Positions 3-17,551 of a stretch of DNA of 20,000 nucleotides are shown here, one piece after another. Under the pieces are notes generated by a model, which did not search any database, was not told the DNA's origin, and worked only from the letters and a program-made list of their open reading frames with translations. The position numbers and the translations under genes are program-made. The DNA is from Rhizaria sp. SCN 62-66. Taxonomy: Eukaryota. The stretch's first letter is position 1; each line of letters opens with the position of its first letter. Location: the NCBI GenBank assembly GCA_001724265.1, contig MEDY01000220.1, positions 56,443 through 76,442 on the forward strand, written 5' to 3'.

Positions 3-3000
3 GCGGCCCGCCGTGCGCAGCGTGACCTAGAGGTCGCCGCGACGCTCCCACCGCCCCCGCCTCCCCCGCGCGCGCCGTATCTAGTGCCGAGCACGCTGCA
101 CGCGTGGCGCAGCGTGCTCGTCAGTGCTCGCGCAAGTAAAGCGTCACTGGCCAAGGTTTACACTGATGCTGACGATCGCTTAAGCAGTCGCATTTCTGCC
201 TTGTTGTCAATCTTTACTCCCCTCAGCAAGGGCATGAGCAGCATGAACCCCAAACTAGCCTCTAAGTCTCCGTCGCACAACCTCATCACATTGCCTCTTA
301 GCCCCACCAATCTCCGCCTGACTTCTTTGGCGATTGCTCTCTCTGTGACGCGTCTGCTACTCCGCACCATGGCTCGTGCTCATGTGTTTGCCCACACCGT
401 TGCGCTTGCACGCACGCGCATTCCTGTCCTGCCCGCGTACCTCTCGTCGGAGGCCGCTCGAACAGCACGCAGCAGTATGGAGAAAGAGCTGGCCCTGGAG
501 GCGCAGACCGCCGCCGCGACTCTCAGCATCGCGCGCGCGCCACTGGCGTACCGCTGCTTGTTTTCGCTTGCCGCAGCTGTTGTCGACAGCAAAGCGCGCG
601 AGTGTGGCTATGCTCTGCTGCCCGCGGTCGTGACTGCGCTGATGAGCGACAGCCCGCCAGCGACGCTTGTTGAAGCTGCTGCTGATGCCGCTGCTCTGGC
701 CGCTGTGATTTCTGACGCGACCAACGCGAACGCGACCGCTACAGGGATGAACGACAATGATAACGAAGAGAGTAGCATTGACGGGAGCCTCGAAAAGGCA
801 GATTTGAATGTGCGGGTCATCACCAAGGTTAATGCTGAGTTATGTGGTGTGAATGATTCGGAGGAGGGTCATAAGGACCCGTTTGCACCTTTGAACTCGT
901 CAATTCTTGCAAATCACGTCAATCCCAAGACCGCGTCCGCTTTAGCCGCTGTGGCTGTGGGCAGCGCACAGTCACCTATGCCTTCTGCAACCGCGACGAC
1001 CGCGACCGAGGACACAGAGTTCTCTCTGCAAATCTCTGAGTTAGCAGGAATGCCTGCGACGCTGCGGACGACTAATCTTGCCGCTTTGCCCCCGCATGAT
1101 TCGCCGCCGGAGCACGCTGTGTTGTCCGCGACGTTTGCGCCGGACAGTGTTGACGCTTCGCCTTCAACGCTTGCTGCGTTGCTGCACGTCCCGCCCCCGG
1201 CCGCCGTCGCAGACATGCGGCGGCGCGCGATTGCCTGGGCCAAAGACGTGCTGACGCTGCAGTTCCGCGCCTGCACCGGAAACCCTGCTGCGATGGCCAC
1301 TGCGGTCGCTGCGGTGCAATCGGCGCTCCGTTCGCCCGGCGTGATGGCGCGTTTCCTTCCGTTCGACTGTGCCGAGCGGTGCATCGATGTCGTTACGTCG
1401 TTGGTCGACTCCACGCGGCTCGGACTCATTGCGCTTAACGCTGCGGCAGTCGAAACATCGAAGCCACTGCTGAAGCTTGCGGGACGTGGTCGGCTCGCTG
1501 CAGAGGGTGTTGCCGCAGCAGCAGCGTCCAGGGCTCGTATCGAGGCTCAAGCCAAGGCGCGTGCTAAAGCAGCGTACAATGAAACTAAGGTTTTCGGTGT
1601 CACTCTGACTGGATTGATTGTCAATTCCAAATCTAAGCAAGCGGTGCGTACGGTTTCTGCAGCACAAATGACGCCAGAGCAACGTGTTTCAGTGGGGCTC
1701 CCTCTACTTCCTGCTGCAGTCGATGTCTCTGGCCGACCGGGCCACGTCACACCTGGAATCAAACAGAAGATGGCAGTTGCGCGCATGTCCTTCGTCAGCT
1801 CTCATCAAAACTCAGCAGCAGCGACTGCACAGGCAAATTCAATCTCGCGTGTTTTCCGTTCTGGCCCATGGCGCGTTCCCCACGCAGACCGGTACTCACT
1901 TCTTTTTGCGCGGGACTTGACTGTGAATGAGGCAACAGCAGCTGGATGGCGTGGTCGCTGTGACGCGGAGCGCGTCCGCGCAACTGCATCTGGTTTACTG
2001 AGAGCTGCGCGTGACGATGTCGGCGATAATGTTGGCATGAGGAGCATTGCCCGACTGTCGCACCGTGGACGCGTGCCATATCTTCTGGCTCTTGCCCTCG
2101 ATGCCGCAGACCGTGCCCGCGCGCGCTCACTTGCGATCGCAGCTCTACCTGCTGCTGCTGCTGCAGAACAAAGTCCTGCTTCGGCTGCAGCTGCCCTGTT
2201 AACGGCTGCGATTATCCCGTCACAGGCACTGCGGACGCTCCGTCGCGCGCTTGTCGCACTCACTCGCTCCAGTCGGCTTCTGTGGCGCCGCAGTCAACTT
2301 GACGCATGGGCGGCGCACCTGCGTGCGGGTGAGTGGGACAACGTCGTTTCTGCCCTCACAAGGCGTGGCATGCTTCCTGACAGTGTAAATAAAGCCTTGG
2401 CTGACTCGTCGCCTGCAATCATGGCTGGTCCGGAGCTTTTGCGCGCGCTTGTAGCTGCAAAGGCAACATCGGGCGGTTCCTCAGCTGCTGTTGTCACTAG
2501 CGTCGCTGCCGCAGTTGCCGCAGTGCAGCGCTTCTCGACGCAAGTGCGCGACCAGCGTTCTGCTATCAGCGAAGCATATGCTGCCGCCGTGAGTGATTTC
2601 ATTGCTGCAGCGGCCGACGCGACGGAGGAGCTTGTTGCCTTAGCAAACACGGACACTAGCTGTGTCAGCAGCTGTGCGCGCCACGGGCGCCACGCAAGCT
2701 CGCACCAAGACAGCGTGAACGCGTGTCACTGCCCACCGCAGCTTGTTGTGGCGTTGCAACTCGCGCGCGCGGTTGCAGCAATGACTGCAACACTGAAGGG
2801 AAGTATTGAAGCGCAGCGTCATTCGTCGCTTGCTGTTGACGCTTTGCTAGCCCGCGCAGGTTCAGCTCTGCATGACGCCCCTGCTGGCCTCATATCCGTT
2901 GGATCCCTGCCTGACCTGCCCACTGCCAATTCCGGTAAAGCCTTGACGCCCGCACTTGCAGCAGCCGCTGCTGCCCTGGACCAGCCTGCGCTGACGGATG

Positions 3001-6000
3001 CAGGTCTGATTCAAGGCGCTCCGCTGCTGCGTCGGCCTCGCGTTCGCGCAGCTGTGTTCGTTCTAGGTGCTGATAGCGCCAACGCGAACGTTTCACGTTC
3101 AAGCAACGGATGTGCAAAGAACGAAGGACTGGCGTTGGCAGGTGCGCTTATGGAGTCTGAGGCTGCAGCACGCCATACCGCGACTGCAGTTGTAAGTAAT
3201 TCACTTGGAACTGAGTATAACCTCGATGGCTCTGCTCTGAGGAGTCTTCTCGTTGCGTTTCCGTCAGCATTTACGACAGGTTCAGTGGCGAACTGCGCTC
3301 TTTCGGTCCCCGGCCTTTCGCTTCCGCTCACAATCGCACTGGCACGACTATTACGGCTCTGCCCCGGTGCACTGCACCTTGTTTTTAACCCCACACTTTC
3401 TCTGCAGTCGCACTTGGCTTCGCTCTTCACTGCGGTTACCGCTGCCGACGACGGTGAGGTTGCTTTTGCATGGGCTGAACTTACGCGTTCTCTTCCAGCC
3501 AGCGAGTGTTTCAATGAAGTGTCTGAGAGCTCTTCAGATGGCAAGCATAGTCAGCAAAATATGGGTGATGTGGCGCTACAGTCACTGCGACGTGCGTTGA
3601 ACGCCGTGTATGCCAGCAATACTAACAGTAGCACAAGCAAGCATGGTGTCACATTGGCTCAGCTTTTTCCCGCAGGCATCCTCTACGCACTTGCCCGTCA
3701 TACGCAGCTCTCACTTGCTGTTGCAGGACGCACACTCTGGCTCCCACAAGCTGCTTGGTTACTTTGTGGCCCCTCACACCCTCTGTCGCCTGTAAGCACA
3801 AGCAAACGTGTTGACAGCTCTGCTTCAAATCTTGGCATGCAAATTGCAAGCGAACGCGCTGCGTTTCTTTGCTCTATTATGCAGTCATCGTCTCTTGCAA
3901 TTGTCGTACATGCTGGCGCCGACCTGCGTCCCCGCTCAACTGCGATGAAGGAGTTGCAAGAGCGGCTGCTGCTCGCTGCCACTGTCGGAATCGACACGCT
4001 GATTGTCGCAATCACCGGTTTGTGGACCTCGCGCGACGGCTTCTCTGCCTCCCGCTTTGCCACTGCTCGCGCTGCCCTCACTGCTGGCGTCCTCAAGGAC
4101 GCAGGTTTCGGCTCTGCCGCTCTGCCTGCTCAAACTCCAGCGTCTCTTGGCGCTTCCTCAGTTCGGTCATCGGCATCACGTGGTGTCGGATCTGGCAACA
4201 GTCGGTCAACGTCCGAAGCTAACGCCGAAGGCGCGGCGGAAGCTGCAGCCAGGGCGCTGGATGCCCCACCAAGTTCGTTCGATACTATTTCATCGACGCC
4301 TACAGTGATCTTCATCCCTCTTGCGGCGGACGCTGATGTGGCTGGTGCGACGGCACGCATTGGTGCAATGACGGTCCCGCCGCACCCAGCTTTGCTTGCA
4401 GCATCGACATCTGCTGCGGCAGCTCTGGCGAACGCGAGTAAGCGCGGGAAGCATGGTGGTGATAATAATAGTAATCACTCGAAGGCTCTTACTTTGGGCC
4501 AGTGGCTGACAACTGATGGCCTGCCCTCAAGTATCTTGCTCGAGAAGATCACAAGTGCGAGCACCCTCACTGGCAGTGGGGACGCAACGGTGTCTGCAAC
4601 ATCAGCCAGTGATATTGCGACTGCGTATGGTAGTGTTGTAAGCGCTGCGGGTGTGCGTGTGGGTCCTTTATCTATTACGCCGGTCAACAACAACGAGAAA
4701 GCTATGTCTGACGCGAGTTCGGCGTCGAGTGGTGCATGTGACTCTGCACTGTGGGCGCGTGCATACCCGTCGCTTCCTGCTGCTCTTGCGCTTACCACAC
4801 CTCATGCGCGTTCTCGTCTCACTGACACAGCGCTGATGTCGCGCCCCGTGTCTTTGCTTGTCTCGTGGGTTTCTGAACCTATTGTGTCCTTATCGACCTC
4901 ACGCACGGCAAATGACACAGGATCGAACCTTGAACCAAGTTGCCGTTCGGGTGATGGTCTGTGGTTTGCGCCCGGCACTGCGAGTACGCATGTGCTTAAC
5001 TCCGGCACTCGCGAAGTCATCAATAGCTCGAACGTCGCAAACACCGAACCACTGATGGCCCGAAAGGCATCCCACTCATGGGGCTCTATCGGAGCTCAAG
5101 AGGAGGGTGACGGTGATTGGGGAGACTGGTGTCCTGCTGTTCCTCGTAACGGTGGCATCACTGACGTGTCGTCGCTTCTGCCACAGCTCCCCGGCTCAAG
5201 CTCGACTAGTAAGGGCAAGTCTGACACTCTTTCGAAACAGGACGACCGTGCTACGGCTGATTCTCCGAATAAGGGTCACACTGCCGTGTTTTCTCGACAC
5301 GCAGTTATTACCTACACTGTACGCGCGCGAGTGATCACTGGTTTGCTTCCCACGAACGCTCTTTCTCCTGCTGCGCTAGTGCACGCAGCTGAGGGAGGTA
5401 AAGTCAGCGCCGCCCAGCTAGCTCTTGCTGCGACGACTGCTGCTGCTTTGGCCCAAGGGCCATTGCTTGCGGCTGCTGTGCCTGCGCAGTCTCCTGACGG
5501 TTTAGCGTCTGTCATCAGGCACTTCACCCGCCGCGCCACCGCCCTCAGCTCTGACACAGTCAAAAACTCTCACGCTTCCAATGACGGCAAGACGAACAGC
5601 AATTCAGTGGAGTTCTTACCGTCATTGCCAGCGATGCCCTTTCCAGTCCAAGTATCTTTTCCTCGCTTCCGTGACAACGTAGCTGACTCTTCACGTTTCC
5701 CCGAGCTTGCACCTCTCATCACAGAGACACGCAATGCAGCGTTACGTGCGGGGATGACCCCTGCTTCAAGTGCCACTCTTGCGACCCGAACTGCGACGTC
5801 CCGCAATGTTTCCGATTTCGAGTTAATGGACCTCGACCACCCAGCGTTCTCTGCTGGTGGCGCTGCAGCCGCAGCACGACACTTACAGGGCCCTGTTCCC
5901 GTCGCTGACTACCACCACGGCAAGTCAAGTGCTAGTGGCGGTCGTGGTGACACGACTTCGGTCAACGATGCTCTTGACGAGACGGGCGATGCTGCGTGCG

Positions 6001-7709
6001 ACTCCGCGCTTTTCGCAGCGCCTGGAGACGATGTTTACGTGACGGTCACTGTTGATGCCGGAGCAGTCGGAGCATTGCTAGAGACTGTCGCTGTTGAATC
6101 AGCTGCACATGATGCAACTGCCAGCGCTGCTGCTGCGACACTGCTGCAAGACTTGGATCCGTCCGACCCGGTTGCAGCGGCTCTGATTCGTTTATCAACT
6201 GCCTCTGCGGTTGCTGCTGACGCTCTTGCATCAGACGGCGCCTCAGTTGCCTCTGGCGACGCAACAGTGGCGAGAGCGCGCGTTGCAGCGAGCGGGGAAG
6301 CGGGTGACTATGCGGCTGCTGTCCTTGCTATTCTGTCTGCGATGCACTCTCCCGAGGGTTGTGCACATGTCCTCTCGAGGAACAGCAATACCGGTGGTTG
6401 CAGTAGCCTCTTTGACGTCAGCATTCGTCCGGGCCACGTTCTGGTGGCACCATCTACTGTCACTGTCGCTGAGGAGACCCGCGACGCGACGGCTAAGTTA
6501 ATCGACACTCTTGCAGGTGGAAAGGCAGGAACCGCGCCGGTTTCTGCTTTTGCTGCCGCAGGCTCCATCGCTGCTGCGCGTGGCAAGCGTCAACAGCCGT
6601 CAGCTGCAGTCGAGCGCGCTGCTGCTCTCTTATCTTCGATGTCTCTGTCGCGCGCGCTAGCTGTACAGAACCCCGCTGTTCGTGGTCTGGCCCCTTTGCC
6701 GCTGCGGTTGGCACGCGTCGTGCAGGTCCTCGTTTCGCCGTGGTCACTTCATCCTGATGTGAATCACAGCAGTCCAGTCACACTTAGCCGGATGTATGGA
6801 GTTGGGAAGAGAGCTTTTTTTGTTCCTATGCGCAGTCTCTCTGCTTGTGACAACGATGCGGAGGATCCACTGTGCACGCTGCTTGGCTTAACGCGTCCTC
6901 GGATCATCATCAACGACAGTGCTCTTGACGAAAACGCCAAGAGTGCTTCCAACATGTGCGCAGCAGGAACGCTTGGAGCTGACCCGCTCCTGACAACCAA
7001 CGATAACATGTGCCTAACTTTGCTCTCTGACTGTGAGCAATGCCAGACTCGCGCTACTGCAACTAGCAAATCCTCACTCACAGTCAAGCAATGGTTGCAA
7101 CAATCCGGTGCAATTCCCTTCACTGTTGAAAAATCTGGGGCCTATGTAAAGCCTGGCGACTTCAGTCCTGCTAAGGTCCTCAATGCAGCATCGGAGTCAG
7201 AGTCGCTTCGTCTGTGTCGTATTGCGTTCGATCCAGTGTATGGTCCCGTTACATCCTGTCGTTTTTGCTCGCCATCAACAGCTCACGAATCGAGCGAGGA
7301 CTCGGTCGAGGACACTGGTGTGATTACCTCGAGTGATCTGAATGGTTCTGATCGTGGTGATATGAGTTCAGCTCTGACTCTTGCTGCGAGTGGGAAAGAA
7401 CGGCATTCCTGGGGACGGACATTGCCGTGGCTGGTTGAGGATGGTATTAGGAGTGCAGATGTTGCAGCCGACGCTGCTGCAGCTACTGCAGCGGCATCTA
7501 CTATTCCAGGCCGTGATGGTGAGATCGAGTACCATGTCAATAGCGATCTACTGTCGTCGATTTCCTGCTTACGTACTGCGCTAGCACCTGGTGCTCAGTT
7601 GTTGAACTCGTTTGTGTGGGTGCGTTTAGAGCGAGGTGACGGCAGTTTGATGAAGATTCGGGTTTGTGGTGTGGGTCGTGTCGTGCAGATTCTTCAGGCT
7701 GTCGACTAA
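3..7709 (+). CDS. Very large Ala-rich hypothetical protein, 5'-truncated by the window edge (>2568 aa)
   Basis: Frame is open from base 3 (AARRAQRDLEVAATLPPPPPPPRAPYLVPSTLHAW...), so the GTG at 84 used by the ORF track is not the true start. No internal stop of any kind over 7.7 kb. Ends TAA at 7707-7709, followed by an abrupt switch to AT-rich sequence. No domain confidently recognised. Confidence 0.85.
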   Translation, partial: AARRAQRDLEVAATLPPPPPPPRAPYLVPSTLHAWRSVLVSARASKASLAKVYTDADDRLSSRISALLSIFTPLSKGMSSMNPKLASKSPSHNLITLPLSPTNLRLTSLAIALSVTRLLLRTMARAHVFAHTVALARTRIPVLPAYLSSEAARTARSSMEKELALEAQTAAATLSIARAPLAYRCLFSLAAAVVDSKARECGYALLPAVVTALMSDSPPATLVEAAADAAALAAVISDATNANATATGMNDNDNEESSIDGSLEKADLNVRVITKVNAELCGVNDSEEGHKDPFAPLNSSILANHVNPKTASALAAVAVGSAQSPMPSATATTATEDTEFSLQISELAGMPATLRTTNLAALPPHDSPPEHAVLSATFAPDSVDASPSTLAALLHVPPPAAVADMRRRAIAWAKDVLTLQFRACTGNPAAMATAVAAVQSALRSPGVMARFLPFDCAERCIDVVTSLVDSTRLGLIALNAAAVETSKPLLKLAGRGRLAAEGVAAAAASRARIEAQAKARAKAAYNETKVFGVTLTGLIVNSKSKQAVRTVSAAQMTPEQRVSVGLPLLPAAVDVSGRPGHVTPGIKQKMAVARMSFVSSHQNSAAATAQANSISRVFRSGPWRVPHADRYSLLFARDLTVNEATAAGWRGRCDAERVRATASGLLRAARDDVGDNVGMRSIARLSHRGRVPYLLALALDAADRARARSLAIAALPAAAAAEQSPASAAAALLTAAIIPSQALRTLRRALVALTRSSRLLWRRSQLDAWAAHLRAGEWDNVVSALTRRGMLPDSVNKALADSSPAIMAGPELLRALVAAKATSGGSSAAVVTSVAAAVAAVQRFSTQVRDQRSAISEAYAAAVSDFIAAAADATEELVALANTDTSCVSSCARHGRHASSHQDSVNACHCPPQLVVALQLARAVAAMTATLKGSIEAQRHSSLAVDALLARAGSALHDAPAGLISVGSLPDLPTANSGKALTPALAAAAAALDQPALTDAGLIQGAPLLRRPRVRAAVFVLGADSANANVSRSSNGCAKNEGLALAGALMESEAAARHTATAVVSNSLGTEYNLDGSALRSLLVAFPSAFTTGSVANCALSVPGLSLPLTIALARLLRLCPGALHLVFNPTLSLQSHLASLFTAVTAADDGEVAFAWAELTRSLPASECFNEVSESSSDGKHSQQNMGDVALQSLRRALNAVYASNTNSSTSKHGVTLAQLFPAGILYALARHTQLSLAVAGRTLWLPQAAWLLCGPSHPLSPVSTSKRVDSSASNLGMQIASERAAFLCSIMQSSSLAIVVHAGADLRPRSTAMKELQERLLLAATVGIDTLIVAITGLWTSRDGFSASRFATARAALTAGVLKDAGFGSAALPAQTPASLGASSVRSSASRGVGSGNSRSTSEANAEGAAEAAARALDAPPSSFDTISSTPTVIFIPLAADADVAGATARIGAMTVPPHPALLAASTSAAAALANASKRGKHGGDNNSNHSKALTLGQWLTTDGLPSSILLEKITSASTLTGSGDATVSATSASDIATAYGSVVSAAGVRVGPLSITPVNNNEKAMSDASSASSGACDSALWARAYPSLPAALALTTPHARSRLTDTALMSRPVSLLVSWVSEPIVSLSTSRTANDTGSNLEPSCRSGDGLWFAPGTASTHVLNSGTREVINSSNVANTEPLMARKASHSWGSIGAQEEGDGDWGDWCPAVPRNGGITDVSSLLPQLPGSSSTSKGKSDTLSKQDDRATADSPNKGHTAVFSRHAVITYTVRARVITGLLPTNALSPAALVHAAEGGKVSAAQLALAATTAAALAQGPLLAAAVPAQSPDGLASVIRHFTRRATALSSDTVKNSHASNDGKTNSNSVEFLPSLPAMPFPVQVSFPRFRDNVADSSRFPELAPLITETRNAALRAGMTPASSATLATRTATSRNVSDFELMDLDHPAFSAGGAAAAARHLQGPVPVADYHHGKSSASGGRGDTTSVNDALDETGDAACDSALFAAPGDDVYVTVTVDAGAVGALLETVAVESAAHDATASAAAATLLQDLDPSDPVAAALIRLSTASAVAADALASDGASVASGDATVARARVAASGEAGDYAAAVLAILSAMHSPEGCAHVLSRNSNTGGCSSLFDVSIRPGHVLVAPSTVTVAEETRDATAKLIDTLAGGKAGTAPVSAFAAAGSIAAARGKRQQPSAAVERAAALLSSMSLSRALAVQNPAVRGLAPLPLRLARVVQVLVSPWSLHPDVNHSSPVTLSRMYGVGKRAFFVPMRSLSACDNDAEDPLCTLLGLTRPRIIINDSALDENAKSASNMCAAGTLGADPLLTTNDNMCLTLLSDCEQCQTRATATSKSSLTVKQWLQQSGAIPFTVEKSGAYVKPGDFSPAKVLNAASESESLRLCRIAFDPVYGPVTSCRFCSPSTAHESSEDSVEDTGVITSSDLNGSDRGDMSSALTLAASGKERHSWGRTLPWLVEDGIRSADVAADAAAATAAASTIPGRDGEIEYHVNSDLLSSISCLRTALAPGAQLLNSFVWVRLERGDGSLMKIRVCGVGRVVQILQAVD

Positions 7710-7858
7710 ATTATCGAACATTCAAGTTATTACGGATCAATCGACGCTCAATAATATCATCTCTATTCGTATATTTATGTAAATAAAAAAGCTATGTAGT
7801 TTTAATTCACAGCTATGTAACGTATTCTTCAGTCAACCTCACTCAAACAAAATTAAAG
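7710..7858. terminator. AT-rich 149-bp spacer between convergent genes (shared 3' UTR/polyadenylation region)
   Basis: Lies between TAA (7707-7709, +) and TGA (7861-7859, -). AATAAA at 7782-7787. AGCTATGTA occurs twice (7790 and 7811). Function inferred from position. Confidence 0.45.
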
Positions 7859-10800
7859 TCATGCAGGAGAAGTGCCGCGTGAATGTGAAGGATCACGCGA
7901 CTGAGGGCGCGACCTCGGCAACGACTGTGGAATATCAAGCGCTGTAAGAACTCTACTGCGCGCCAACACTGCATCAGCTTCTGTCAAAGAATGGACGCGT
8001 GGCGCTGCACGACTACGCACGTTTCGGCCGAGGGCGTATTCGACACTAGTCGCGTTCGTGAGAGAATCATTTCCATGCGCATAAACACCACTGTCATTTA
8101 GTGCAGTTGTATCTACGCTAGATGAATGAAGTAGAGTTGTGTTCACGCTCGTGTCTAAAACAGGATTATACACGGAATTGCTCATCAACACCTGGTCATG
8201 TCCATGATCTGCGAAGGTGTCTGTGATAGGCTTGCTCCGAGAACCCTTTCGAGGCGCAATTGCGGCCACAGCAGCTTGTGTAAGCGCTGATCGGGCCGCA
8301 CTCGCAACGCTCGCGGCAGCCCACTGGGTTGCGATCATACCCACCGGCTTTACAGCCGCAGTGCCGTGTTCTGTACTGCAGTAACCACTGACGGTAGTGG
8401 TGCCCGAGCAAGTTAAGCTGCCAATATTGTGACAGGAGGGAGTCAAAGAAAATTGATGCGACTTTAGCGCTACGGCATTTATAGCAGCGCGACCATTGCT
8501 TAATGCCGATTGAGCAATTACCTGATATGCAGCTGCAGCTGCAAACGTTGCTCGTCCCACTTCACCGTCGCTTGCAAGTGCCGCAGCTACGGCGCCACCA
8601 GCAGTCAGTGCCGCCACCCCGCGTGCGTGCGCGGTGTCCAACGCTGTCACTGTAACTTGATGAGCAAGCCTAAATCGCCGCAAGGAGAGAGCCGCTGCCT
8701 CGAGCGCGCGTGCACCACGCGCAGCCGCCGCGGCCGCGCGCCAACCGCGGATACCGCTCCGCCTGAGTGCGCGCAAGCGTGTCGCATCAGCAACTTGCTC
8801 GGCGGCCCTCTGCGCAGCGGATTCATGGTGTGCGTTTCGCCAGCTACGCAGCGTCCGCTGCAGTAACATGCGCACGCTCATATACTCAGCCGCCGCGCGC
8901 TGGTGGGCAAGCGCTGACATAGGGTCGATGACGGTATGGTGCCACCGAAGTAAGAGTGCACGCGTTTGAGCTTTGTCGTAGTGAGCGACTGCTAACTGCC
9001 ATTGTGCGCGCGCGCGGCCGGCATCTGCAGTCGCGGCGACCCAAGCGCGCAGCACCGGCCGCATGCGCGCGCGTTGGATTGTTGCGACGGCAGGTGCCAC
9101 CCGCAGCCACCATGCGCGCCGCTGCGCAGCTGCGAGCGACGCGGTCTCGCGCCAAGCTGTGAACACACACCGCTGCGCGCGGGCAACGCGGTGGGAGTGC
9201 GCGCGCTCCAGCCCAGCCTATTCACGACGGCGATCAGACAACGCCGTGCGCCAGTGATGCCACGTTGCGACCCGGAGGCGGTGTGCACGAGCCAGGATGA
9301 CCTTGGCTGCAGCAACACGGCGGGCGCGGATAATTCTGGTTACCGATGCCCATGCAGTGAGCAACCGACGACGACGCGCGTCAACAAGCGCCTTCGGTGC
9401 ATTAGCAGCGGTCATTAAAGCATGCTCACGGCCATGGGTAGTTTTTACTGCATCCTTAAGAGCATCAAGCCCACGCGAGATTGCAAGGGCGCGCAAAACG
9501 AAGCCGGCAAGACGAGCAGCCTCGCGCGCGCGCTTGCGCCGAGCTAATTCGAGTGCCCACAACCGCACTGCGCGGCGCATGCGCGTTGCAATAGCAAACA
9601 CCACCTCGCCGCGGCTCCGCGCGCGTTCCTTTGCATACGCGCGTAGGCGGTGTACAGCCCGACGCAACGCGCGTCTCGGTGCCCCAGCTGCGTGTGCAGT
9701 CGCAGCGGCTGAGATGTTGCGGTGCACAATACGCTGCTTTGCATACGCGCGGAGAGTTGCAAGAGCGGGCCGAGCACGAGCTGTCAGTGCTGCAGACCGT
9801 GTGTGGCCGGCGCGAATGCGTGCTCTGACTTTGCGAGTGGCGTTTTGCTTCAGCGCAAACACAACGCGAGAGAGAGCCCCTGCGCGCCAGTGTTCGTGAG
9901 CGATCTCGGCGAATTGGCGGCGGACGCGCAGCACGCCGACACGCAGCGTCCAGCGCTTGAGCACGCTCTGCACGCGCGCCACGAGCGCTGCCTGTGCAGC
10001 GTCTCGGCCCCACGCTTGAGCCGCAGTGTGGCTGCGCAGTGCAGCGACGGCGGCGCGCTTGGCCGTCACCTGGCGGTGCGCCAGCGCCCTGCGCGCGCGA
10101 CCCGCCTCAGCGGCAGCGGCAGGGTCGTAACGGGGGTCCCGCGGGTCGCTCAGTGCGCGCCAAAGCGCCCACGCGGCGGCCGCCTTGCCGGCCAAGAGTA
10201 CTGCGCCCGCCCGCAGCGCCAGCTCGCGCGCGGCCGCGAGCAGCCTCGCGCGGCGCCGCCAGTTCGCAAAGGCCTCGGTCAGCGCGGCCGCGCGGGAGCG
10301 GGCGGCAATGCGGGCACCCAGCAGCCGCAGCGCGCGGGACCGCGGCGTGTACTCGAAGCGCCAGGCGCGGAACACGCGGCGCAGCAGTCCGTCGGCGCGC
10401 GCGGCGGCGTGGCTAGCGCGAAGGCCGCGGACCGCCGACTGCAGTCGCACCGTCTCGCGCCAGTGCTTCATAACGCCACGTAGCCGCACGCGAGCCGCCG
10501 CTGTTGTAGCAGCTGACACAGTGTCACGTGCAACAGTGCGCGCACGAGCCCACGGGCGCCAGTGTGAGAGAACACGGATGACAGCGTTTTTATGCGCGCG
10601 TTTCTTGTGCGCGACAGAAGCAGCAACGACATATCGCCATGATTGCATCGCAAACGCTAGCGCATGCCGGCGCCGCATTTGCTGCAAAGGCCGCTCACGT
10701 TTCGTTGAGGCCGCGTTCTACTGAAGCGCGGCAAGCGCAAGAGCAGCGGCGCGACGACGGCGATAACCGTTGGCAATGATGCTCGACTGCCAGCGAAAGC

Positions 10801-11095
10801 GCCGTTCGTCGACACGGTCCTTCAGCGCTGCAAGACCGCGCTCGATACCACGGCGCTTGTGTAGCGCCGCCCCGCGGGCAACAAGTAAACGGTCTTGCAG
10901 TTCATCCTGCCAGCGGCCGAGGTACTACGACACCAAAGCGGTTTGGCGCCCAGGAGTGTCGCGCGCTGAGGGCAGAAGCGAGAGACCTGAAGGAAGGCCC
11001 GCTGAAAGTGAATCTAAAGCTAGCGGGGGCACGTGATTCGTACTACCTTGTGGGGTGGCGCTGGGAGAACTGTCACCTCTTGGAGGCACGTCCAT
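7859..11095 (-). CDS. Sfi1-like centrin-binding repeat protein (about 1078 aa when three in-frame TAGs are read as sense)
   Basis: ATG at 11095-11093 (MDVPPRGDSSPSATPQG...), with an in-frame TGA upstream at 11134-11132. Single frame to TGA 7861-7859, with internal TAG only at 10927-10925, 10720-10718 and 9220-9218. Arg/Ala-rich helical repeats with (F/L/M)xxW[R/K] motifs: VLSHWR, VMKHWR, VFRAWR, AFANWR, AWALWR, with Trp spaced 33,33,34,33 aa. This is the hallmark of Sfi1 repeats. Joins track ORFs 9218..10687 and 7859..9166. Confidence 0.8.
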
Positions 11096-11695
11096 CGGAC
11101 AGAATAGCCCTGATTGGAAGGCAGTGTTGAGTCAGTGGACTGTGTGCCGAGGGTGTGATTATCTAAGAAATGATTAGAAAGCAAAGCAGAGTGTGATTCA
11201 AATATAATTAACTAAACACTGTGCAAGTTCTGTTTAACGCATTTGGACATTACCAATCACCGGTTTTACGATATGAATACATCACTCTGGTCAAGACAAT
11301 AAACAGATCGAACAGTTGCCCGCCTCCAGCATCGCCGTCGAGAATCAAACAATGATCACTGCATACGTCATATAAAGATAAAACGAACATGAAAATTGAC
11401 ATGTATTAGTTAAAACATTACATTACATATTGTACTTATTTATATTTATCACGACCGATTGATAAAGGCATCTCAGCGACCAATTTAGGCATGCTGCGTG
11501 ACGTTGCCAGACGAAGTCACAAGGAATTGCGTCAATATTGAGCTGTGTACCCGTCATCCGCGCTAGATTGAACTAATTATTGGAATTTATTCGTAATATT
11601 TTGAATAATATGTGCTCACATCCTCTTGTTTTCTCTAAATCCCAAATATGACATCTTAGCCCAACATTGGATAACTTCGTCTCACACTTCTGGCG
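11096..11695. promoter_or_regulatory. Divergent (bidirectional) promoter region between the Sfi1-like gene and REV1
   Basis: AT-rich 600-bp spacer between head-to-head ATGs. Contains TATAAA (11371-11376), CCAAT-like words and TGACG/CGTCA words (11365-11370, 11499-11503, 11530-11534). Function inferred from position only. Confidence 0.5.
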
Positions 11696-14600
11696 ATGTC
11701 GCATTAGCCACCAATGCATCCGCACGCACCCTACATAACCGCTGGAAGTGGTACAAACAACGCAACACTGGCCGATATACCGGTAAATATGCACTCACCC
11801 CGCTCCAGTGATACTGGAAACGATTTCGAATGTAGCAATGGGGTCGACGCCAACCTTCTTGCAGCTCTCAACAGCGTCGACAGTCCCGTTGACCGGAATA
11901 TGGGGGAGTATATGCAAGCAAAAAGGCGTAAAGTACATGCTCAATATCTAGCCGAACCAATCACCGTCAATTTGGACGACATTGTACCACGGCCTGGGAC
12001 TGACTCATCGAATGATGAAGCAAGCATCACTGAGAGTGCAGCCAGCGCCGTCAGCGACGCTGTCACCGCTGACCGCAATAGTCGCAACACGACCGATCTT
12101 TTTTGTGGTTGCGTGTTCTGGGTTGACGGCCATACGAACCCGCCACTCTCCGTGTTGAGGCCGCTGATCACTGCGCGCGGTGGTCTCGTTGACCAAACCC
12201 TGCTCGCGAATGCGGCCGGCGGTAACGGCAACACGATCACTCACATCATCGCTTCAACGTTGCCGACTACAAAACACCAAGAGCTTCGGCGCACATACGT
12301 CCCGCGCGCCTCCGGAGTAGTACTTCCCGCATTCATACAGAGCTCTGCGAACGCCTCTGCGCATCAGCAGCAGCTGCCAGGAGCGCCCTTCGGTGGAGTG
12401 GCTGCGGTGTCGGCGGCGGACGCAGCGCGTGCGGAGAGGCTGCGGCGTGCAGTGCCAGTGGTGCGCCCGGAATGGGTGTTGGACTCGCTTGCTGCGGGTA
12501 AACTTGTTGGCGTAACGCCGTATCGCGTTGACATGCTAGTGTCGGAGAGTGTCAATAACAATAGCAATAACTACAACAATACGAATCCGAACAAAGCAGG
12601 CGCTCACACAAAGGTTGCTGGAAGTCTGTATCGGAAGAAGCAGCAAACCAGTTTGCCACCTAAGCCGATGCACAGTTATCCCCAGCAGCAATCAGACCCA
12701 CCCAATGCACTCACCACTCGGACTCATCATACCGCGCATCAGGCTCAACCGCAATCTCCACCGCGCAATCCTGCCGTAGCCGTGAGCAACGTTGCCGCTG
12801 GAGTGGCTGGGCAGCAGATCAACAGTGGGTTTGCTGCAAGCAACCGTGGCACCGCTCTAACCGCGCAGGCGTATCATGCACGCTCGCGGCTGCACTTGCT
12901 TGGCGCATGGCGCAGTGAGCACTACGTAGCGAATACATTGCCACGGCTGTTGGCGATGCTTCCGCAGCGCCGGCCACTGTCGGACCCTGCAGCTGCGCCG
13001 CTTAAGTACCTGATATCAGCAGCTACAGAGTTCGCTGTGTCAGGTAACGGTGGCAGTTTGACCTCGTCGAACAGCAGCATGAACCGTGGCACTAGAGCAA
13101 CCGATGAAAAACGTGACTTTGTTGGCCACGTGAACGGTCAAATGCCACTACCGCTAAGCGCTGCACTCTGGCAGAAGTGGTCACACACGCCTGCATTTGC
13201 GTCAAGAACATTGACATCGGACTCAGCATGTGTATTGAACGCTACACTGCCATGTTTGTCTCCTGAAGCAGCAACACTGTTACTTGGGGGAAACACGAAT
13301 AGTTCGACTGCACAGTCAGTTCATGGAGGCAGACGGCATCTACAATCGATCCTCACATCAGGATCGGACACACAGTCTCCGAAAAATTATGATGATTCAT
13401 TGCCACAGTCATCTCGAACAGTTCCATGGCTTGTGCTGCACATTGACATGGACTCGTTCTTTGCTTCGGTCGCATTGGCAAATACGCGGTCCGACTTGAT
13501 GGACATTGAATGTACGGCAGATCCCTCTCTGCACAGGCCTACAGTTACCGCATGCAAATCCCGCGATAACAATGAGGTGTCAACCGCTAACGGCGACAAG
13601 AATCAAGTAATCACCGATGATATTACCGTGTTACTGTCACATCCCCGCTCGGTCCTGTCATCGTCGCATCCGGTCGCAGTTTCCCACGGTGCTTCCTTCA
13701 TGAATAATTCCAGCACGAACAACAGCTCTGCATCGATGGCAGCTGTGTCATCATGCAACTACCCCGCCCGCGCCCGTGGCATCAGGGCTGACATGCGGCT
13801 AGCCGCTGCGCTTTCTCTTTGCCCTGACCTGGCTGTCGTGCCGTACACGTTTCCTGCTTATGTTGCGGCCTCAGACAAGCTTCACACAGCGCTTGCATCA
13901 CTGTCGTCGTGGGTTGTTCCGGTATCAATTGACGAGGGGCTGGTGGTAGCGAGCAGGGGTGATGTTGTCACCGCCTTTCTCGCTCATGCTGACACGAAAT
14001 ACTACTTCTCTATCACTGCGAATGAAAACAACCCTGATTTGAAGAACTACAACACCAATTATGTGAGCGTATCGCTTGCGCATTTAGACGCGGCATCCTC
14101 CCTTTGGTTCGCTCAGCTTGCACAGGCCCGAGTCGCCGCAGGCACTGGGTCTGCCTGCACTGTCGGTGCCGGCCCTTCGCCTTTGCTTGCTCGAGCTGCG
14201 ACCGCGGCTGCGAAACCCGCACGCGTGCGGGTGGTGCCCCCCTGTGCCACGGATGTGGCCGCGTTCGTGGCGCAGATGCCGCTGGGCGAGCTGCCGGGAC
14301 TCGGAAGGGTTGGGCTCAGGCGCGCGGTGGCAATGCTGAAGTCAGAGGCTGGTGCAGTGCAAGGTAGAATGACTGCCAGATAGCAGCAAGAGGAGGAAGA
14401 GGAGGAGGATGTGGGACAAACAAAACGTGTTCCGACTAATAATACCGGTGACGGCAGTAATAGTTAGGACGACAACTCTTACCTTACGTGCAAGCCACTA
14501 CAAGATATGGTGCTTGGACACAACCTTGCCAAAGGTGACAGTAATCCCAAGGCGCTGTTAGCGAGTTACATTGGCCAACAACTTGATTCTCAGCACGTTT

Positions 14601-17551
14601 TATCATCGACTCCAGCTGCAGCAACAGCCCTCCTTGCGACCATCTCCCCGCCACCACCATTGATTGCCGCGTTTGGTCCTGTGACAGCGCGCACGCTCAC
14701 TGCCTTAGTGCTTGGTATTGACACTAGGCCAGTCGAGACAACGTTTCTACTCACGTCTTTGTTGGCATCTGTGTCATCTCAGAGTGGCCTTGGCAACAGT
14801 AGCTCCGACGGTGTGGCCGCAGCTGCTGCAGCTGCCGCCGCTGCCGCTGCAGCAGGTGGCGTGCGCAAGACTGTTAGTGTGGATGTCACGTGGGGCGTCC
14901 GTCTCAGCACCCCGCGCGCAGGCAACCTACTTCTGCTCCAAGTTGCGGCCTCGGCGTTAACCCGACTGCACGCTGCTAGTGCCACCGCCGACCGTGCGAC
15001 ACTGCGGCTTATGATCAAACAGCCTGGCGCAGTCGTTAATCCCAAGTTTATGGGACATGGACCTTGTGATGTCGTGTCTAAGACGGCGAAGTTAAGTCGT
15101 ACTCTGGATCCCCGGAGTGACAGCGATGCTCCGCCAACACCAGAGCTGTTACCTATTGAGAAAGCTGTAAATACCGGAGTACATTTTACTGATGGTGATG
15201 ATGGTAATGGGCCTGTAGACCTGGCACGCGTGCCACAAGGTTCTCTTCGGCGATTGTTTGATGCACTGAGGGGGATTTGGGACACGCAGTTACGGCCGCA
15301 ACTCACGGAAGTGCGTGGTGTTAGTGTTGTTCTCGGAGGACTGCAACCGCGTACCGCGGGGCACAACATCACCTCATTCAACACAGCCAGTGGAGTCAAC
15401 GGGATGCTCGCGAGTCACGCCGATGCTTCTAGTGGACCTGGAGGTATTCTGGCTATGTTGAACACCTCGTCAACGACGAGTGATACCGCAACAAGTGATG
15501 GTTTCGGAGGTACTGTTGGTGGACGTGACCCGTTTGCGGGCAATAAGAGAGAAAAGAGTGGGCAACAAACAAGGAAATGCAATCATGCGACTAACGCTGG
15601 TGCAGCCCTACGATCATTTTTGACTGAAAAACTAAGTGATAATGACAGTGACATTGAGGTTTGTGGCAACATTATCAGCGATCGCCACCGCGACAGCGGT
15701 CGGTACAGTTTTGATGATGGCAATGATGAACTTGTTGTCAGCGACGTCATCGTCGTGACTCACGACGGAGTGCGTGATAAGGATGATGGAACTGAGCGCG
15801 AACAAGCGAAGAAGACAGCATTAATGCAGTGGATGTCATCAAATCAGACCCGTGTTAGCAATGCGCTACCGCAACATCACGCAAGAGAACAGCGCAAGTT
15901 GAACTGTTGTCATATCGATATCTCTGCTGCTAGGATTATTAGCATTGACTAGCCACCTTCCGAGCATAGCGTCGCAAATGCTACAGGTGTTCACGCATCC
16001 AGCTCTGATATGTATTTGCAGCAACGGCAGCAAATGACGCCAGAATGGTTAGTATCGTTACTGCTTCATCAGTCATCATGCAAACATGCACAGCGCTGCC
16101 CAAGTAAGTCTGAACAGGGTAATGGTTGTTTAGATATTGAAACTAGGCGTTGCTCCCCGCAGCTGCGTTGCAAATCGCCAGAGTGTGATCCGTGTCTATG
16201 TTGCATGTCAAGACTCACAGATATCCACATGAATGGCCTAGTCGCAGGCTCTTCTACAACGTCTGAAGAAGTGCACTGCGTGCAACAAACTTGGTTGACC
16301 ACAGTCTCACAGATCTCGTTATTAGCAACTGCACTAATGCGCGATCCTTCTACACTCCGCACGCTCACCCGCCAAGCGCGGGAGTTGTTAAAACGACTAA
16401 GCATGAATTTCCGCATGTTGACCGCGCAAAAAAACAATCGTGATATTGGGGAAAAAGTTGCTCCGTCCTCTGATCATCGCGATATCATAATACTTGAACA
16501 TTCTGATGTTCATGGTGTCGCGAGCTTGCCAGGCTCGGATTCAACACTCAGAGTCGATTGTGATGTGCTTCCTTCAAGTAATGAGCCGGCGGTTTTCCCT
16601 GGTAACTCCGATGTCGACACCGCAGTGTGCACAGCACATGGGGGCAAAGTATCAAATTCATGTTTGCCGAAGTTAAAGCCTCTTACAGAATAGGATATTA
16701 TGGCATCCGACACAAGTGTGATTATGTCCCAATGTGATGATGATACTGCGACTGTTGTGGCGTTATCTACATGGCTTTTAAAGACTGTGTTACCCCCTAC
16801 AGTTACCATGTGCGCAGTCGACCTATGCAAGGCGACAACCATCACAGCACCACTTCACATGGACAACACAGTCCACACCATTACTGGTAGTGATGAAGAG
16901 GGTCCTGTTATTGTCACAGTTGTGTGGCAACCCGTGCGGTGGACACTCGCATTGCGATGGTTACTGCGACTAGCAGTGACAGCAGCCACAGTAGGTCTAA
17001 ACCCGAGTACCAACGCGAATGAGTGCGTAATCACCGCTGTCGAAAAAAACGTTTTGCCAGAGACGCCGAGTCTTGGTACAACCGCAGCGGTATGCAGCGC
17101 TGTTGAAGCAGCCAGACGCGCAGTTGACATCCAATGGCGTTGCCGTTGCACGAAAAGCAAGAATAGTGGTTGCGGCCAAGATGTGTTCATCCTGACTGAT
17201 GACGATGCGAAGAATGACGCTGCATCCAGTTGGACTCGTAGTATTGTTAATATGGAATTGAGCTCAGTTAACAGTATGTGTTTCATGAACGCGTGCAGTC
17301 AAAATAACAAATACGAGGATAAAAACACTCATGAAGACACAAGGAAACCACACTATTGCGCAATATGCCGCTCTCTATCTGTGTGGCAATAGCTGACACT
17401 GATCTTCCGCACAACGACTGCCATTATCGCAGATAATGCAATTGATGTAAGTTTGAAAGGACATGAGAGACTACAACGTGCAGTCGCGGTTGCCGCTGTT
17501 TTTGACTCGAAGGTGACTGCCGTTCTTCAACGGGTCGAACAACAACATTGA
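11696..17551 (+). CDS. REV1: REV1 Y-family translesion DNA polymerase / deoxycytidyl transferase (about 1951 aa with six in-frame TAGs read as sense; alternative start 11714)
   Basis: Pre-BRCT helix GEYMQAKRRKVHAQY. BRCT domain LFCGCVFWVDGHTNPP...ITHIIAS...VVRPEWVLDSLAAGKL (~12098-12510). REV1-specific N-digit SRLH (12884). Catalytic HIDMDSFFASV (13439) and SIDE (13925). Also SSCNYPARARGI...LCPDL and HhH LPGLG. After TAGs at 14381 and 14465 the domain continues with LTCKPLQ, FGPVTA...GIDTRPV, RKTVSVDVTWGVR and KFMGHGPCD (thumb and PAD/little-finger motifs). Internal TAGs at 11705, 14381, 14465, 15950, 16691, 17390; terminal TGA 17549-17551. Confidence 0.92.
14390..14407 (+). repeat. GAR tract encoding poly-Glu (6 E) inside a REV1 insertion
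   Basis: GAG GAG GAA GAG GAG GAG immediately after TAG CAG CAA, in the REV1 frame. Confidence 0.7.
14816..14854 (+). repeat. GCN tract encoding 13 Ala inside REV1
   Basis: 13 consecutive GCN codons between the GIDTRPV motif and the RKTVS motif. Confidence 0.8.

What the first reader, a model, noticed from the sequence alone, without database searches (positions are those of the whole stretch)
7859..17551. Non-standard nuclear genetic code: UAG is a sense codon while UAA and UGA remain stops
Seen in sequence: two independent genes on opposite strands are each one continuous reading frame broken only by TAG. REV1 has them at 11705, 14381, 14465, 15950, 16691 and 17390; the Sfi1-like gene (minus strand) at 10927, 10720 and 9220. 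There are no internal TAA/TGA in about 6,250 codons across four genes, and all four genes end in TAA (7709, 19861) or TGA (7859, 17551) at shifts to more AT-rich sequence. Random nonsense decay would give a mix of TAA/TGA/TAG plus frameshifts. Established knowledge: most eukaryotic reassignments change UAA and UAG together (many ciliates, hexamitid diplomonads, some ulvophytes). Uncoupled UAG-only reassignment is rare; it is known from the fornicate Iotanema spirale (Gln), an insect-associated rhizarian (Leu) and some phyllopharyngean ciliates. Inference: this organism uses such a code and may be an undescribed independent origin.
Basis: partly seen in the sequence, partly recalled or inferred. 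Interest (0 to 1): 0.95.

Follow-up and report, generated by a model that had tools for sequence, protein, structure and literature searches.

The report
In-frame TAG codons read as sense
Two neighbouring genes of an unidentified wastewater eukaryote can only make full-length proteins if TAG is read as an amino acid, which points to a rare genetic code in which only one of the three stop codons has changed.

Summary
Under TAG=sense the REV1-like gene is one 1958-codon frame and the minus-strand gene one 1090-codon frame. There are 0 internal TAA/TGA in 6274 codons, and the four genes end in TAA (2) or TGA (2).

The TAGs are not assembly errors: contigs from runs of two other studies reproduce 7 of 9 without change. 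Two TAGs lie inside the REV1 catalytic core, with palm and fingers upstream and the little finger downstream. Coding signal stays in frame across every TAG. Nonsense decay predicts only about 40% TAG, so P(9 of 9) is 2-4e-4, and there are no frameshifts.

Best reading (0.8): UAG is decoded as an amino acid, while UAA and UGA terminate.

Open points:
- The amino acid is undetermined; there is a weak hint for Gln.
- No tRNA, eRF1 or whole genome could be examined.
- The organism could not be placed, so an independent origin is untested.
- All nine TAGs are in two of the four genes (P=0.0015 by length). These are the two least codon-biased genes, so an ambiguous or gene-selective code is not excluded.

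This is a new member of a known, rare kind.

The parts
3..7709 (+). Gene A. 5'-open frame of 2568 codons, Ala-rich, no Pfam family. No in-frame TAG, TAA or TGA. Ends in TAA 7707-7709.
7710..7858 (.). AT-rich convergent spacer of 149 bp between the stop codons of A and B.
7859..11095 (-). Gene B. The first ATG in the frame is at 11095-11093 and the stop TGA at 7861-7859. Ala/Arg-rich, with a [FL]xxW[RK]-type W repeat about every 33 residues from W74 to W797 (Sfi1-like by motif only). Three in-frame TAGs.
   Evidence: no Pfam hit
9218..9220 (-). In-frame TAG, codon 638 of the B frame, between W627 and W660 of the repeat array.
   Evidence: Unchanged in a DNA contig of run X3 (6739-10042) and in a contig of the polyA RNA run X7 (8981-9254).
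10718..10720 (-). In-frame TAG, codon 138 of the B frame.
   Evidence: Frame-0 coding signal on both sides. Unchanged in X3 and X4 contigs.
10925..10927 (-). In-frame TAG, codon 69 of the B frame, 5 residues before W74.
   Evidence: Unchanged in X3 and X4 contigs.
11096..11695 (.). AT-rich divergent spacer between the first ATGs of B and C. Polypyrimidine tracts followed by AG lie upstream of both.
   Evidence: read by eye
11696..17551 (+). Gene C, REV1 orthologue. First ATG at 11696, alternative ATG at 11714, stop TGA at 17549-17551. Six in-frame TAGs in the stop-to-stop frame.
11705..11707 (+). TAG at the 4th codon after the first ATG. Ambiguous: it is inside the protein only if translation starts at 11696.
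   Evidence: Unchanged in X3 and X4 contigs.
12095..12349 (+). BRCT domain of REV1 (residues 141-225 of the frame).
   Evidence: BRCT_2, E=1.5e-07
13664..14203 (+). Y-family polymerase palm/fingers (Pfam IMS, residues 664-843). The catalytic D591, D593 and S751-D753-E754 are invariant in the alignment.
14381..14383 (+). In-frame TAG, codon 903, at the start of a 28-codon acidic insertion in the thumb of the polymerase core.
14465..14467 (+). In-frame TAG, codon 931, at the end of the same insertion, just before a confidently modelled thumb helix.
14864..15100 (+). Little-finger (PAD) domain of REV1, residues 1064-1142, downstream of both core TAGs.
   Evidence: 52% identity over 79 aa, E=1e-16; 73 non-self hits, all on this stretch; invariant K1065, W1073, R1076, G1127-H1128-G1129, C1131, D1132
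15950..15952 (+). In-frame TAG, codon 1426.
   Evidence: Unchanged in an X4 contig (14848-16515).
16691..16693 (+). In-frame TAG, codon 1673.
   Evidence: Unchanged in an X4 contig (16487-17507).
17390..17392 (+). In-frame TAG, codon 1906, 52 codons before the TGA stop.
   Evidence: Unchanged in an X4 contig (16487-17507).
17897..19861 (+). Gene D. 654-residue ARM/HEAT-like repeat protein with strong codon bias and no TAG. Ends in TAA 19859-61. One relative at 58% identity exists in public metagenomes.

Best explanation
The window is nuclear DNA of an unidentified, GC-rich eukaryote that shows no introns here and occurs in wastewater-type samples. In this organism the ribosome reads UAG as an amino acid, while UAA and UGA still terminate.

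Shown: two genes on opposite strands need UAG read-through to give their full-length products.

Inferred: the mechanism is the usual one for UAG-only reassignment. That is a tRNA with anticodon CUA, which does not read UAA, probably together with an eRF1 that recognises UAG poorly. Neither is in the window.

The encoded residue is not determined. Gln is the most likely, by precedent and by a weak local hint. UAG is a rare codon here (9 of 6274 codons) and is found only in the two least codon-biased genes. This fits a poorly decoded codon that is avoided in better-expressed genes.
For: 1. Frames. With TAG as sense, C is one 1958-codon frame and B one 1090-codon frame. There are 0 internal TAA/TGA in 6274 codons, and 4 of 4 genes end in TAA or TGA.

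2. A conserved enzyme core spans two TAGs. Pfam IMS (E=8.7e-23) and BRCT lie upstream. The REV1 little finger lies downstream: 52% identity over 79 aa, E=1e-16, and 73 non-self phmmer hits all fall on this stretch. Invariant catalytic and little-finger residues sit on both sides. An AlphaFold model of residues 575-1215 (mean pLDDT 63.9) matches human and yeast REV1 cores over 615-641 alignment columns; the top hit is 3gqc_A, E=1.6e-22, TM by target 0.62. The stretch between the two TAGs includes a low-confidence loop (model residues 337-357, pLDDT below 50).

3. Coding signal. A codon log-likelihood trained on A and D is highest in frame 0 in 9 of 11 between-TAG segments. The 10-codon stretch before TAG 11705 is a near tie with frame 2. 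Codons 1426-1672 of C score -0.006 in frame 0, still above the other two frames. The set includes B codons 1-137. In the 50-codon flanks next to the TAGs frame 0 is also highest, apart from that same short stretch. The same frame is kept across all nine TAGs, which argues against introns and frameshifts.

4. Not errors. Contigs from runs of two other studies (X3, X4) reproduce 7 of 9 TAGs with 0 differences, and no indels are listed. One contig of a polyA RNA run carries the TAG at 9220 unchanged.

5. Not random decay. Single-step nonsense paths from the codons of B and C give a TAG share of 0.40-0.42, so P(9 of 9 TAG) is 2.4e-4 to 4.1e-4 and P(6 of 6) is about 0.004-0.006.

6. Precedent. In Iotanema spirale, 348 of 730 contigs carry UAG in the region aligned to homologues, and all observed terminators are UAA or UGA. 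In the rhizarian exLh, UAG is scarce in ribosomal-protein genes (PMC5304391: section 7 read, passages of section 6 seen).
Against: All nine TAGs are in B and C. A and D together (3226 codons) have none, although TAG is as common in their off-frames as elsewhere. If the nine were placed by gene length, P=0.0015. A and D taken alone look like standard-code genes.

Only four terminators were seen, so use of UAG as a stop elsewhere is not excluded.

The window holds no tRNA, and no eRF1, no genome and no DNA of a relative could be obtained.

No TAG falls on a conserved alignment column: codons 903 and 931 lie in an insertion. So there is no direct evidence for which residue is inserted, or that one is.

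B has no homologue or family support.

The RNA evidence is one contig at one site, in a library that may contain DNA.
Confidence: 0.8

Rival explanations
1. Ambiguous or gene-selective decoding. UAG is still a stop for most genes, but is suppressed, partly or by context, in some weakly expressed genes such as REV1 and gene B. This would resemble the context-dependent codes of Condylostoma, karyorelicts or Blastocrithidia, or be an early 'ambiguous intermediate' stage of reassignment.
For: All nine TAGs are in two of the four genes (P=0.0015). A and D avoid TAG as completely as they avoid TAA and TGA. The order of codon bias is D > A > B > C, the inverse of TAG density. The base after TAG is C at 4 of 9 sites; C is recalled, from no call here, as a weak termination context.
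Against: Five or six leaky stops in one gene would multiply to a negligible yield unless decoding is efficient. No gene in the window ends in TAG (0 of 4). In a known unambiguous case about half of the contigs also lack UAG (348 of 730 carry it; PMC5304391 section 7).
Confidence: 0.1
2. Restorative A-to-I RNA editing. The genomic TAGs are true premature stops that are edited to UGG (Trp) in the mRNA, as in the sexual stage of filamentous ascomycetes. This would explain why only TAG is seen and why only some genes are affected.
For: Fungal editing prefers U at -1 and corrects UAG stops. 71 such 'pseudogenes' are described in Fusarium graminearum (abstracts only, seen in the listing: PMC10776026, PMC11156358, PMC4817773). 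All three named REV1 hits are ascomycetes, though at only 28-31% identity.
Against: In-frame TAGs are no more often in predicted hairpin loops (4 of 9) than off-frame TAGs (26 of 55). The one RNA contig that covers a TAG shows it unedited. The neighbours of the TAGs are polar, and Trp ranks last of 20 residues in the neighbour model. TAG positions in B do not fall in phase with its W repeat. About 19 kb of coding sequence with no intron seen, and five or six sites in one gene, are unlike the fungal cases (recalled).
Confidence: 0.04
3. B and C are decaying pseudogenes, or copies of genes whose functional versions lie elsewhere in the genome.
For: The TAGs are concentrated in two adjacent genes. 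B has no detectable homologue.
Against: Only TAG is seen (P = 2-4e-4 under a nonsense-path null). There is no frameshift in 3048 codons. Catalytic and little-finger residues are intact. Frame-0 codon signal holds throughout. The sequence is the same in runs dated 2017 and 2025.
Confidence: 0.02
4. Artefact: assembly or sequencing errors, or TAGs that lie in unrecognised introns.
For: The source is a low-coverage metagenome assembly (word depth about 3-10 in most bins).
Against: 7 of 9 TAGs are identical in contigs from two other studies. The frame is the same on both sides of all nine TAGs, whereas introns of arbitrary length would keep it about one time in three each. The coding signal abuts each TAG. 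One RNA contig spans the TAG at 9220 without a gap.
Confidence: 0.01

Closest known systems
Iotanema spirale (Fornicata): UAG = Gln, UAA and UGA = stop (PMC5304391, section 7 read)
   Same: Only UAG is in frame. The terminators are UAA and UGA. UAG is an occasional codon: there 204 in 126 genes, and 348 of 730 contigs carry one; here 9 in 4 genes.
   Different: That case rests on a transcriptome, with 22 of 28 hyperconserved positions being Gln. Here the residue is undetermined and the organism unplaced. Iotanema is a gut endobiont of a gecko. This sequence comes from wastewater, bioreactor and fuel-cell samples.
Rhizarian exLh (Sainouroidea): UAG = Leu (PMC5304391, passages seen)
   Same: UAG-only reassignment in a non-ciliate. 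UAG is rarer in highly expressed genes. Sainouroids are described there as coprophilic, a habitat not far from sewage.
   Different: exLh uses UAG often (384 in 71 genes). Here it is rare, and its neighbours are polar, so Leu ranks low in the neighbour model (16th of 20; weak evidence).
Phyllopharyngean ciliates and Protocruzia tuzeti: UAG = Leu or Gln (PMC11687900, passages seen)
   Same: [quoted passage not shown]
   Different: Those are ciliates, and UAA is their preferred stop. The paper gives GC of 27.4-53.6% for the group. This window has about 56% GC, lies on a contig of up to 207,920 bases, has very long frames with no intron seen, and uses TGA as often as TAA (2 and 2).
Context-dependent stop/sense codes (Condylostoma, karyorelicts, Blastocrithidia; abstracts in the listing)
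   Same: In-frame 'stop' codons are translated. The meaning could depend on position or gene.
   Different: Those codes involve two or three stop codons. Here only TAG is involved, and TAA and TGA never occur in frame.
Restorative A-to-I editing of UAG in filamentous ascomycetes (abstracts in the listing)
   Same: TAG-only premature stops in a subset of otherwise intact genes.
   Different: No hairpin-loop enrichment. One RNA contig is unedited. There are many sites per gene. No sign of a Trp context.

Membership tests
Nuclear code with UAG-only stop-to-sense reassignment | In-frame UAG inside genes whose conserved parts lie on both sides of it | tested here: met
   REV1 palm/fingers lie upstream and the little finger downstream of TAG 903 and 931. 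Frame-0 coding signal runs across all nine TAGs, apart from the 10-codon stretch before TAG 11705.
Nuclear code with UAG-only stop-to-sense reassignment | UAA and UGA never in frame and used as terminators | tested here: met
   0 internal TAA/TGA in 6274 codons. Terminators are TAA x2 and TGA x2. Only four genes were available.
Nuclear code with UAG-only stop-to-sense reassignment | UAG not used as a terminator across the genome | not testable with these tools
   0 of 4 genes end in TAG. No genome is held. No further contigs were found.
Nuclear code with UAG-only stop-to-sense reassignment | UAG sites align with one particular amino acid at conserved columns of orthologues | tested here: inconclusive
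   No TAG falls on a conserved column. The REV1 C-terminal half finds only its own fragments. The neighbour model is flat. 3 of 9 TAGs touch a Gln codon, against 17.6% for Gln and about 6% for Glu, Leu, Lys and Ser.
Nuclear code with UAG-only stop-to-sense reassignment | A tRNA with anticodon CUA | not testable with these tools
   ARAGORN finds 0 tRNAs in the 20 kb and Rfam 0 families. The rest of the genome is not available.
Nuclear code with UAG-only stop-to-sense reassignment | Altered eRF1 stop-codon recognition | not testable with these tools
   eRF1 is not in the window, and no genome is held.
REV1 (Y-family DNA polymerase) | N-terminal BRCT domain, Y-family palm/fingers with catalytic acidic residues, thumb and little finger | tested here: met
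   BRCT_2 and IMS. Invariant D591, D593 and S751-D753-E754, plus little-finger residues. The best structural matches are human and yeast REV1 cores.
REV1 (Y-family DNA polymerase) | C-terminal domain that binds other translesion polymerases | tested here: inconclusive
   No Pfam hit for it at E<=0.01. There is only a loose MAFFT alignment of residues around 1720-1830 to the C-terminal part of fungal REV1.
Sfi1 (centrin-binding repeat protein) | Tandem repeats with a conserved Trp about every 33 residues (consensus recalled, not from a call) | tested here: met
   W spacings of 30, 33, 34, 30, 33, 34 and 33 occur within the array from W74 to W797, with [FL]xxW[RK/Q/H]-type motifs.
Sfi1 (centrin-binding repeat protein) | Significant match to the family profile or to a solved Sfi1 | tested here: not met
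   No Pfam family at E<=10. No PDB sequence at E<=1. B is therefore filed as 'Sfi1-like by motif' only.
Fungal restorative A-to-I editing | Edited A sits in a hairpin loop, and the RNA shows G at the site | tested here: not met
   Hairpin loop at 4 of 9 in-frame TAGs against 26 of 55 off-frame TAGs. One RNA contig at TAG 9220 is unchanged; the other eight sites have no RNA cover.

The most novel reading that the evidence does not exclude
A lineage outside the ciliates, and unrelated to Iotanema or the rhizarian exLh, has reassigned UAG alone, independently, in a GC-rich genome where AT pressure cannot explain loss of the codon. UAG may encode a residue not yet seen for UAG-only nuclear codes. 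UAG may also still be confined to weakly expressed genes, which would be a reassignment caught at an early, gene-selective stage.
Probability: 0.35. Interest if true: 0.8.

Novelty: new member of a known kind. Interest (0 to 1): 0.62.

Why it matters
Nuclear codes in which UAG and UAA differ in meaning are rare. The two papers read here list only a handful of lineages. Each new case tests whether the two codons are really coupled in evolution and how eRF1 and tRNA-CUA co-evolve.

This case would be unusual in three ways:
- The genome is GC-rich.
- TGA is kept as a stop as often as TAA.
- The reassigned codon is rare and unevenly spread among genes.
That makes it a useful test case for the codon-capture and ambiguous-intermediate models.

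There is also a practical point. Gene callers cut these genes at TAG: the public protein collections hold the REV1 tail as 227- and 230-residue fragments. The organism's proteome is therefore mis-predicted in metagenome resources.

Tried and rejected
Genome and earlier findings
- Whole genome: none is held.
- The look-up of encoding contigs was declared closed and was not called.
- Paper supplements were not requested. The tables of PMC5304391 and PMC11687900 that list codon counts could refine the comparison of UAG density.

Searches for more DNA
- Gene D and the D + relative alignment were scanned against metagenome contigs and genome contigs. None of the four scans gave a relative by tblastn.

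Protein searches
- REV1 560-1300, lengths near: 6 distant hits at 24-33% identity.
- REV1 600-1958, lengths shorter: only the window's own fragments.
- phmmer of REV1 850-1958 against the representatives: 75 hits. Two are self, and the rest cover only the little finger.
- So no relative aligns to any TAG.
- The best little-finger hit is a dinoflagellate transcript. I do not read that as a placement.

Families and features
- Pfam gives nothing above threshold for A, B or D.
- The PDB sequence search gives nothing for B.
- Rfam: 0 families. tRNA: 0.
- The Atlas search of D gave ARM/HEAT-like neighbours only.

Which residue TAG encodes
- The neighbour-residue likelihood is flat. Its top ranks are Cys, Lys, Tyr and Glu, within about 1.5 nats of each other, so it is not used.
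- TAG positions are not in phase with the W repeat of B.

Editing test
- No enrichment of hairpin loops.

Read cover
- No listed piece covers TAG 14381 or 14465.
- The RNA run has no listed cover at eight of the nine TAGs. Absence of cover is not read as evidence either way.
- Joints listed have sides of 20-38 letters at low-complexity GC-rich stretches. I treat them as other organisms' contigs, not as splicing.

Literature
- No paper on a wastewater or activated-sludge protist with a UAG change was found. The searches were (0 papers).
Full report
**What is in the window.** Read from stop to stop, the 20 kb holds four long frames with AT-rich spacers between them.
- A: 3-7709 (+), 5'-open, 2568 codons.
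- B: 7859-11131 (-), 1090 codons.
- C: 11675-17551 (+), 1958 codons.
- D: 17885-19861 (+), 658 codons; its ATG is at 17897.
GC is about 0.5-0.78 in the frames. It drops to 0.42-0.46 in the three spacers. No intron needs to be invoked in about 19 kb of coding sequence.

**The observation.** Under the standard code, C breaks at TAGs at 11705, 14381, 14465, 15950, 16691 and 17390. B breaks at TAGs whose first bases on the minus strand are 10927, 10720 and 9220. With TAG as sense each gene is a single frame. In frame there are 9 TAG, 0 TAA and 0 TGA among 6274 codons. The terminators are TAA (A, D) and TGA (B, C).

In the off-frames of the same genes TGA is the commonest stop triplet and TAG the rarest or near-rarest. 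From those counts, TAA+TGA make up 168 of 3916 off-frame codons in C. A 1958-codon frame free of both therefore has a chance of order 1e-37 (my arithmetic).

One site is ambiguous. TAG 11705 is the fourth codon after the first ATG (11696), and another ATG follows at 11714.

**Are the TAGs real?** The sequence occurs in 11 listed public runs of 6 studies. The best holder may be the source. I laid four runs.
- Contigs of X3 and X4, from two other studies, cover 7 of the 9 TAGs with 0 differences. Those are 9220, 10720, 10927, 11705, 15950, 16691 and 17390.
- No indel is listed anywhere in the window.
- A contig of a polyA RNA run (X7, 8981-9254) carries TAG 9220 unchanged. The tool warns that DNA can be present in such a library.
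- X5 holds short pieces that match exactly.
The organism therefore recurs in wastewater, bioreactor, fuel-cell and activated-sludge samples.

**Are the TAGs inside proteins?** Gene C is a REV1 orthologue.
- Pfam finds IMS (E=8.7e-23, residues 664-843) and BRCT_2.
- The best sequence hits are REV1 proteins; the three that carry a name are fungal.
- In the alignment the catalytic D591, D593 and S751-D753-E754 are invariant upstream of TAG 903.
- K1065, W1073, R1076, G1127-H1128-G1129, C1131 and D1132 of the little finger are invariant downstream of TAG 931.
- The little finger matches a dinoflagellate REV1-like transcript at 52% over 79 residues, E=1e-16.
- It also draws all 73 non-self phmmer hits.

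An AlphaFold model of residues 575-1215, with TAG read as Q, has mean pLDDT 63.9. Palm and fingers reach 85-92 and thumb helices up to 89. Its best PDB matches are human and yeast REV1 catalytic cores, aligned over 615-641 columns. The top hit is 3gqc_A, with E=1.6e-22 and TM by target 0.62. The stretch between the two TAGs holds a low-confidence loop (model residues 337-357) inserted in the thumb. A product ending at codon 903 would lack half the thumb and all of the little finger.

A codon log-likelihood trained on A and D is highest in frame 0 in 9 of the 11 between-TAG segments of B and C. The two weak ones are the 10 codons before TAG 11705, a near tie with frame 2, and codons 1426-1672 of C, at -0.006 but still above the other frames.

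Gene B has no family hit. It does carry a [FL]xxW[RK]-type repeat about every 33 residues from W74 to W797. W74 and W114 lie between the first two TAGs. Frame-0 coding signal is positive for codons 1-137. TAG 69 and TAG 138 are therefore probably inside the protein.

**Explanations weighed.**
- Random decay. Single-step nonsense paths give TAG only 40-42% of the time, so P(9 of 9) is 2.4e-4 to 4.1e-4. There are no frameshifts in 3048 codons.
- Introns. These would not keep the frame nine times out of nine, and the coding signal abuts each TAG.
- Errors. Excluded by the independent runs.
- Fungal-type restorative A-to-I editing of UAG to UGG. It is a real precedent for TAG-only premature stops (abstracts in the listing). 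Here, however, in-frame TAGs are not enriched in hairpin loops: 4 of 9 against 26 of 55 off-frame. The one RNA contig is unedited. Trp fits the local context worst and is out of phase with the W repeat of B.

The best explanation is that UAG is decoded as an amino acid while UAA and UGA terminate. The mechanism is inferred, not shown: a tRNA with anticodon CUA, which does not read UAA (argument in PMC11687900, passages seen), plus weakened recognition of UAG by eRF1.

**What argues for caution.** All nine TAGs are in B and C. A and D, with 3226 codons, have none, although off-frame TAG is as common there. By length alone P=0.0015.

Codon bias runs D > A > B > C, taking CAG:CAA and GAG:GAA ratios. 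This is the inverse of TAG density. It fits a poorly decoded rare codon that is avoided in better-expressed genes, as described for the rhizarian exLh (PMC5304391, passages). It also fits Iotanema, where only 348 of 730 contigs carry UAG (section 7). With four genes, though, this is a trend and not a test. An ambiguous or gene-selective code stays open, at about 0.1.

**Which amino acid?** Undetermined. No TAG lies on a conserved column, and no relative's REV1 or B could be found.
- Three of the nine TAGs touch a Gln codon. In these proteins 17.6% of Gln residues have a Gln neighbour, against about 6% of Glu, Leu, Lys and Ser. That gives a likelihood ratio of about 10 for Gln over Leu (my arithmetic).
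- The fuller neighbour model is flat.
- The contexts are polar, which weakly disfavours Leu and Trp.

**Which organism?** Unknown. The window holds no rRNA, tRNA or other RNA family. Gene D has one relative at 58% identity in public metagenomes. The named REV1 hits are fungal, but at only 28-31% identity. The four scans of the DNA collections found nothing.

The architecture is a contig of up to 207,920 bases, about 56% GC, and very long frames with no intron seen. This is unlike the phyllopharyngean ciliates described in PMC11687900, which have GC of 27.4-53.6%. Kinship with CL3 fornicates or sainouroid rhizarians cannot be excluded. 'Independent origin' is therefore untested.

**Comparison and verdict.** This works like the known UAG-only nuclear codes: Iotanema (Gln), exLh (Leu), and phyllopharyngeans and Protocruzia (Leu or Gln). 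The window-level membership features are met. The genome-level ones (terminator census, tRNA-CUA, eRF1, residue identity) could not be tested.

I rate it a new member of a known, rare kind. Confidence in the code reading is 0.8 and interest is 0.62. Literature searches found no description of such an organism from wastewater.

Noticed in passing
window 14816-14855: A run of 12 Ala codons (GCN repeat) inside REV1 attracts many unrelated contigs. Word depth jumps to 18-57 in the bin 14675-15341 in all four runs, with dozens of loose ends. This is a mapping trap, not a feature of the gene.
   Followed up: partly
window 19030-19192 (gene D): In run X4 a second contig overlaps the identical one and differs at 15 places in about 160 bases, 8 of them third codon positions. 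This is the stretch most conserved between D and its 58%-identical relative P0012. It may be a related strain or species living in the same sample.
   Followed up: partly
window 17897-19861 (gene D): ARM/HEAT-like repeat protein with no Pfam family. The Atlas model resembles armadillo-repeat proteins (TM 0.5-0.58), and its nearest feature clusters are named BRAT1, PRD1 or MEI1-like. Codon bias is very strong (CAG 11 : CAA 1, GAG 26 : GAA 3).
   Followed up: partly
window 3-7709 (gene A): A frame of at least 2568 codons, Ala-rich and low in complexity, with no family hit (best is DUF3656, E=0.049, below cut-off) and no stop codon of any kind. Its function is unknown.
   Followed up: partly
window 11590-11660, 11160-11200 (minus strand), 17775-17830: Polypyrimidine tracts followed by AG lie shortly upstream of the first ATG of C, B and D. 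They look like splice-acceptor or trans-splicing signals. This was read by eye only and no test was made.
   Followed up: no
window 11648-11674: A tiny upstream frame (ATG, two codons, TAG, four codons, then TAA) lies in the same frame as REV1 just before it. If TAG is sense it is an 8-codon uORF ending in TAA.
   Followed up: no
window 7710-7858: Only 149 bases separate the stop codons of the convergent genes A and B. An AATAAA lies about 75 bases after the stop of A. The 3' ends of the two transcripts must nearly touch or overlap.
   Followed up: no
window 17447: Run X4 reads T instead of G here, which changes GTA (Val) to TTA (Leu) in the REV1 tail. It is one of only five isolated differences between the window and X4 outside the 19030-19192 cluster.
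   Followed up: no
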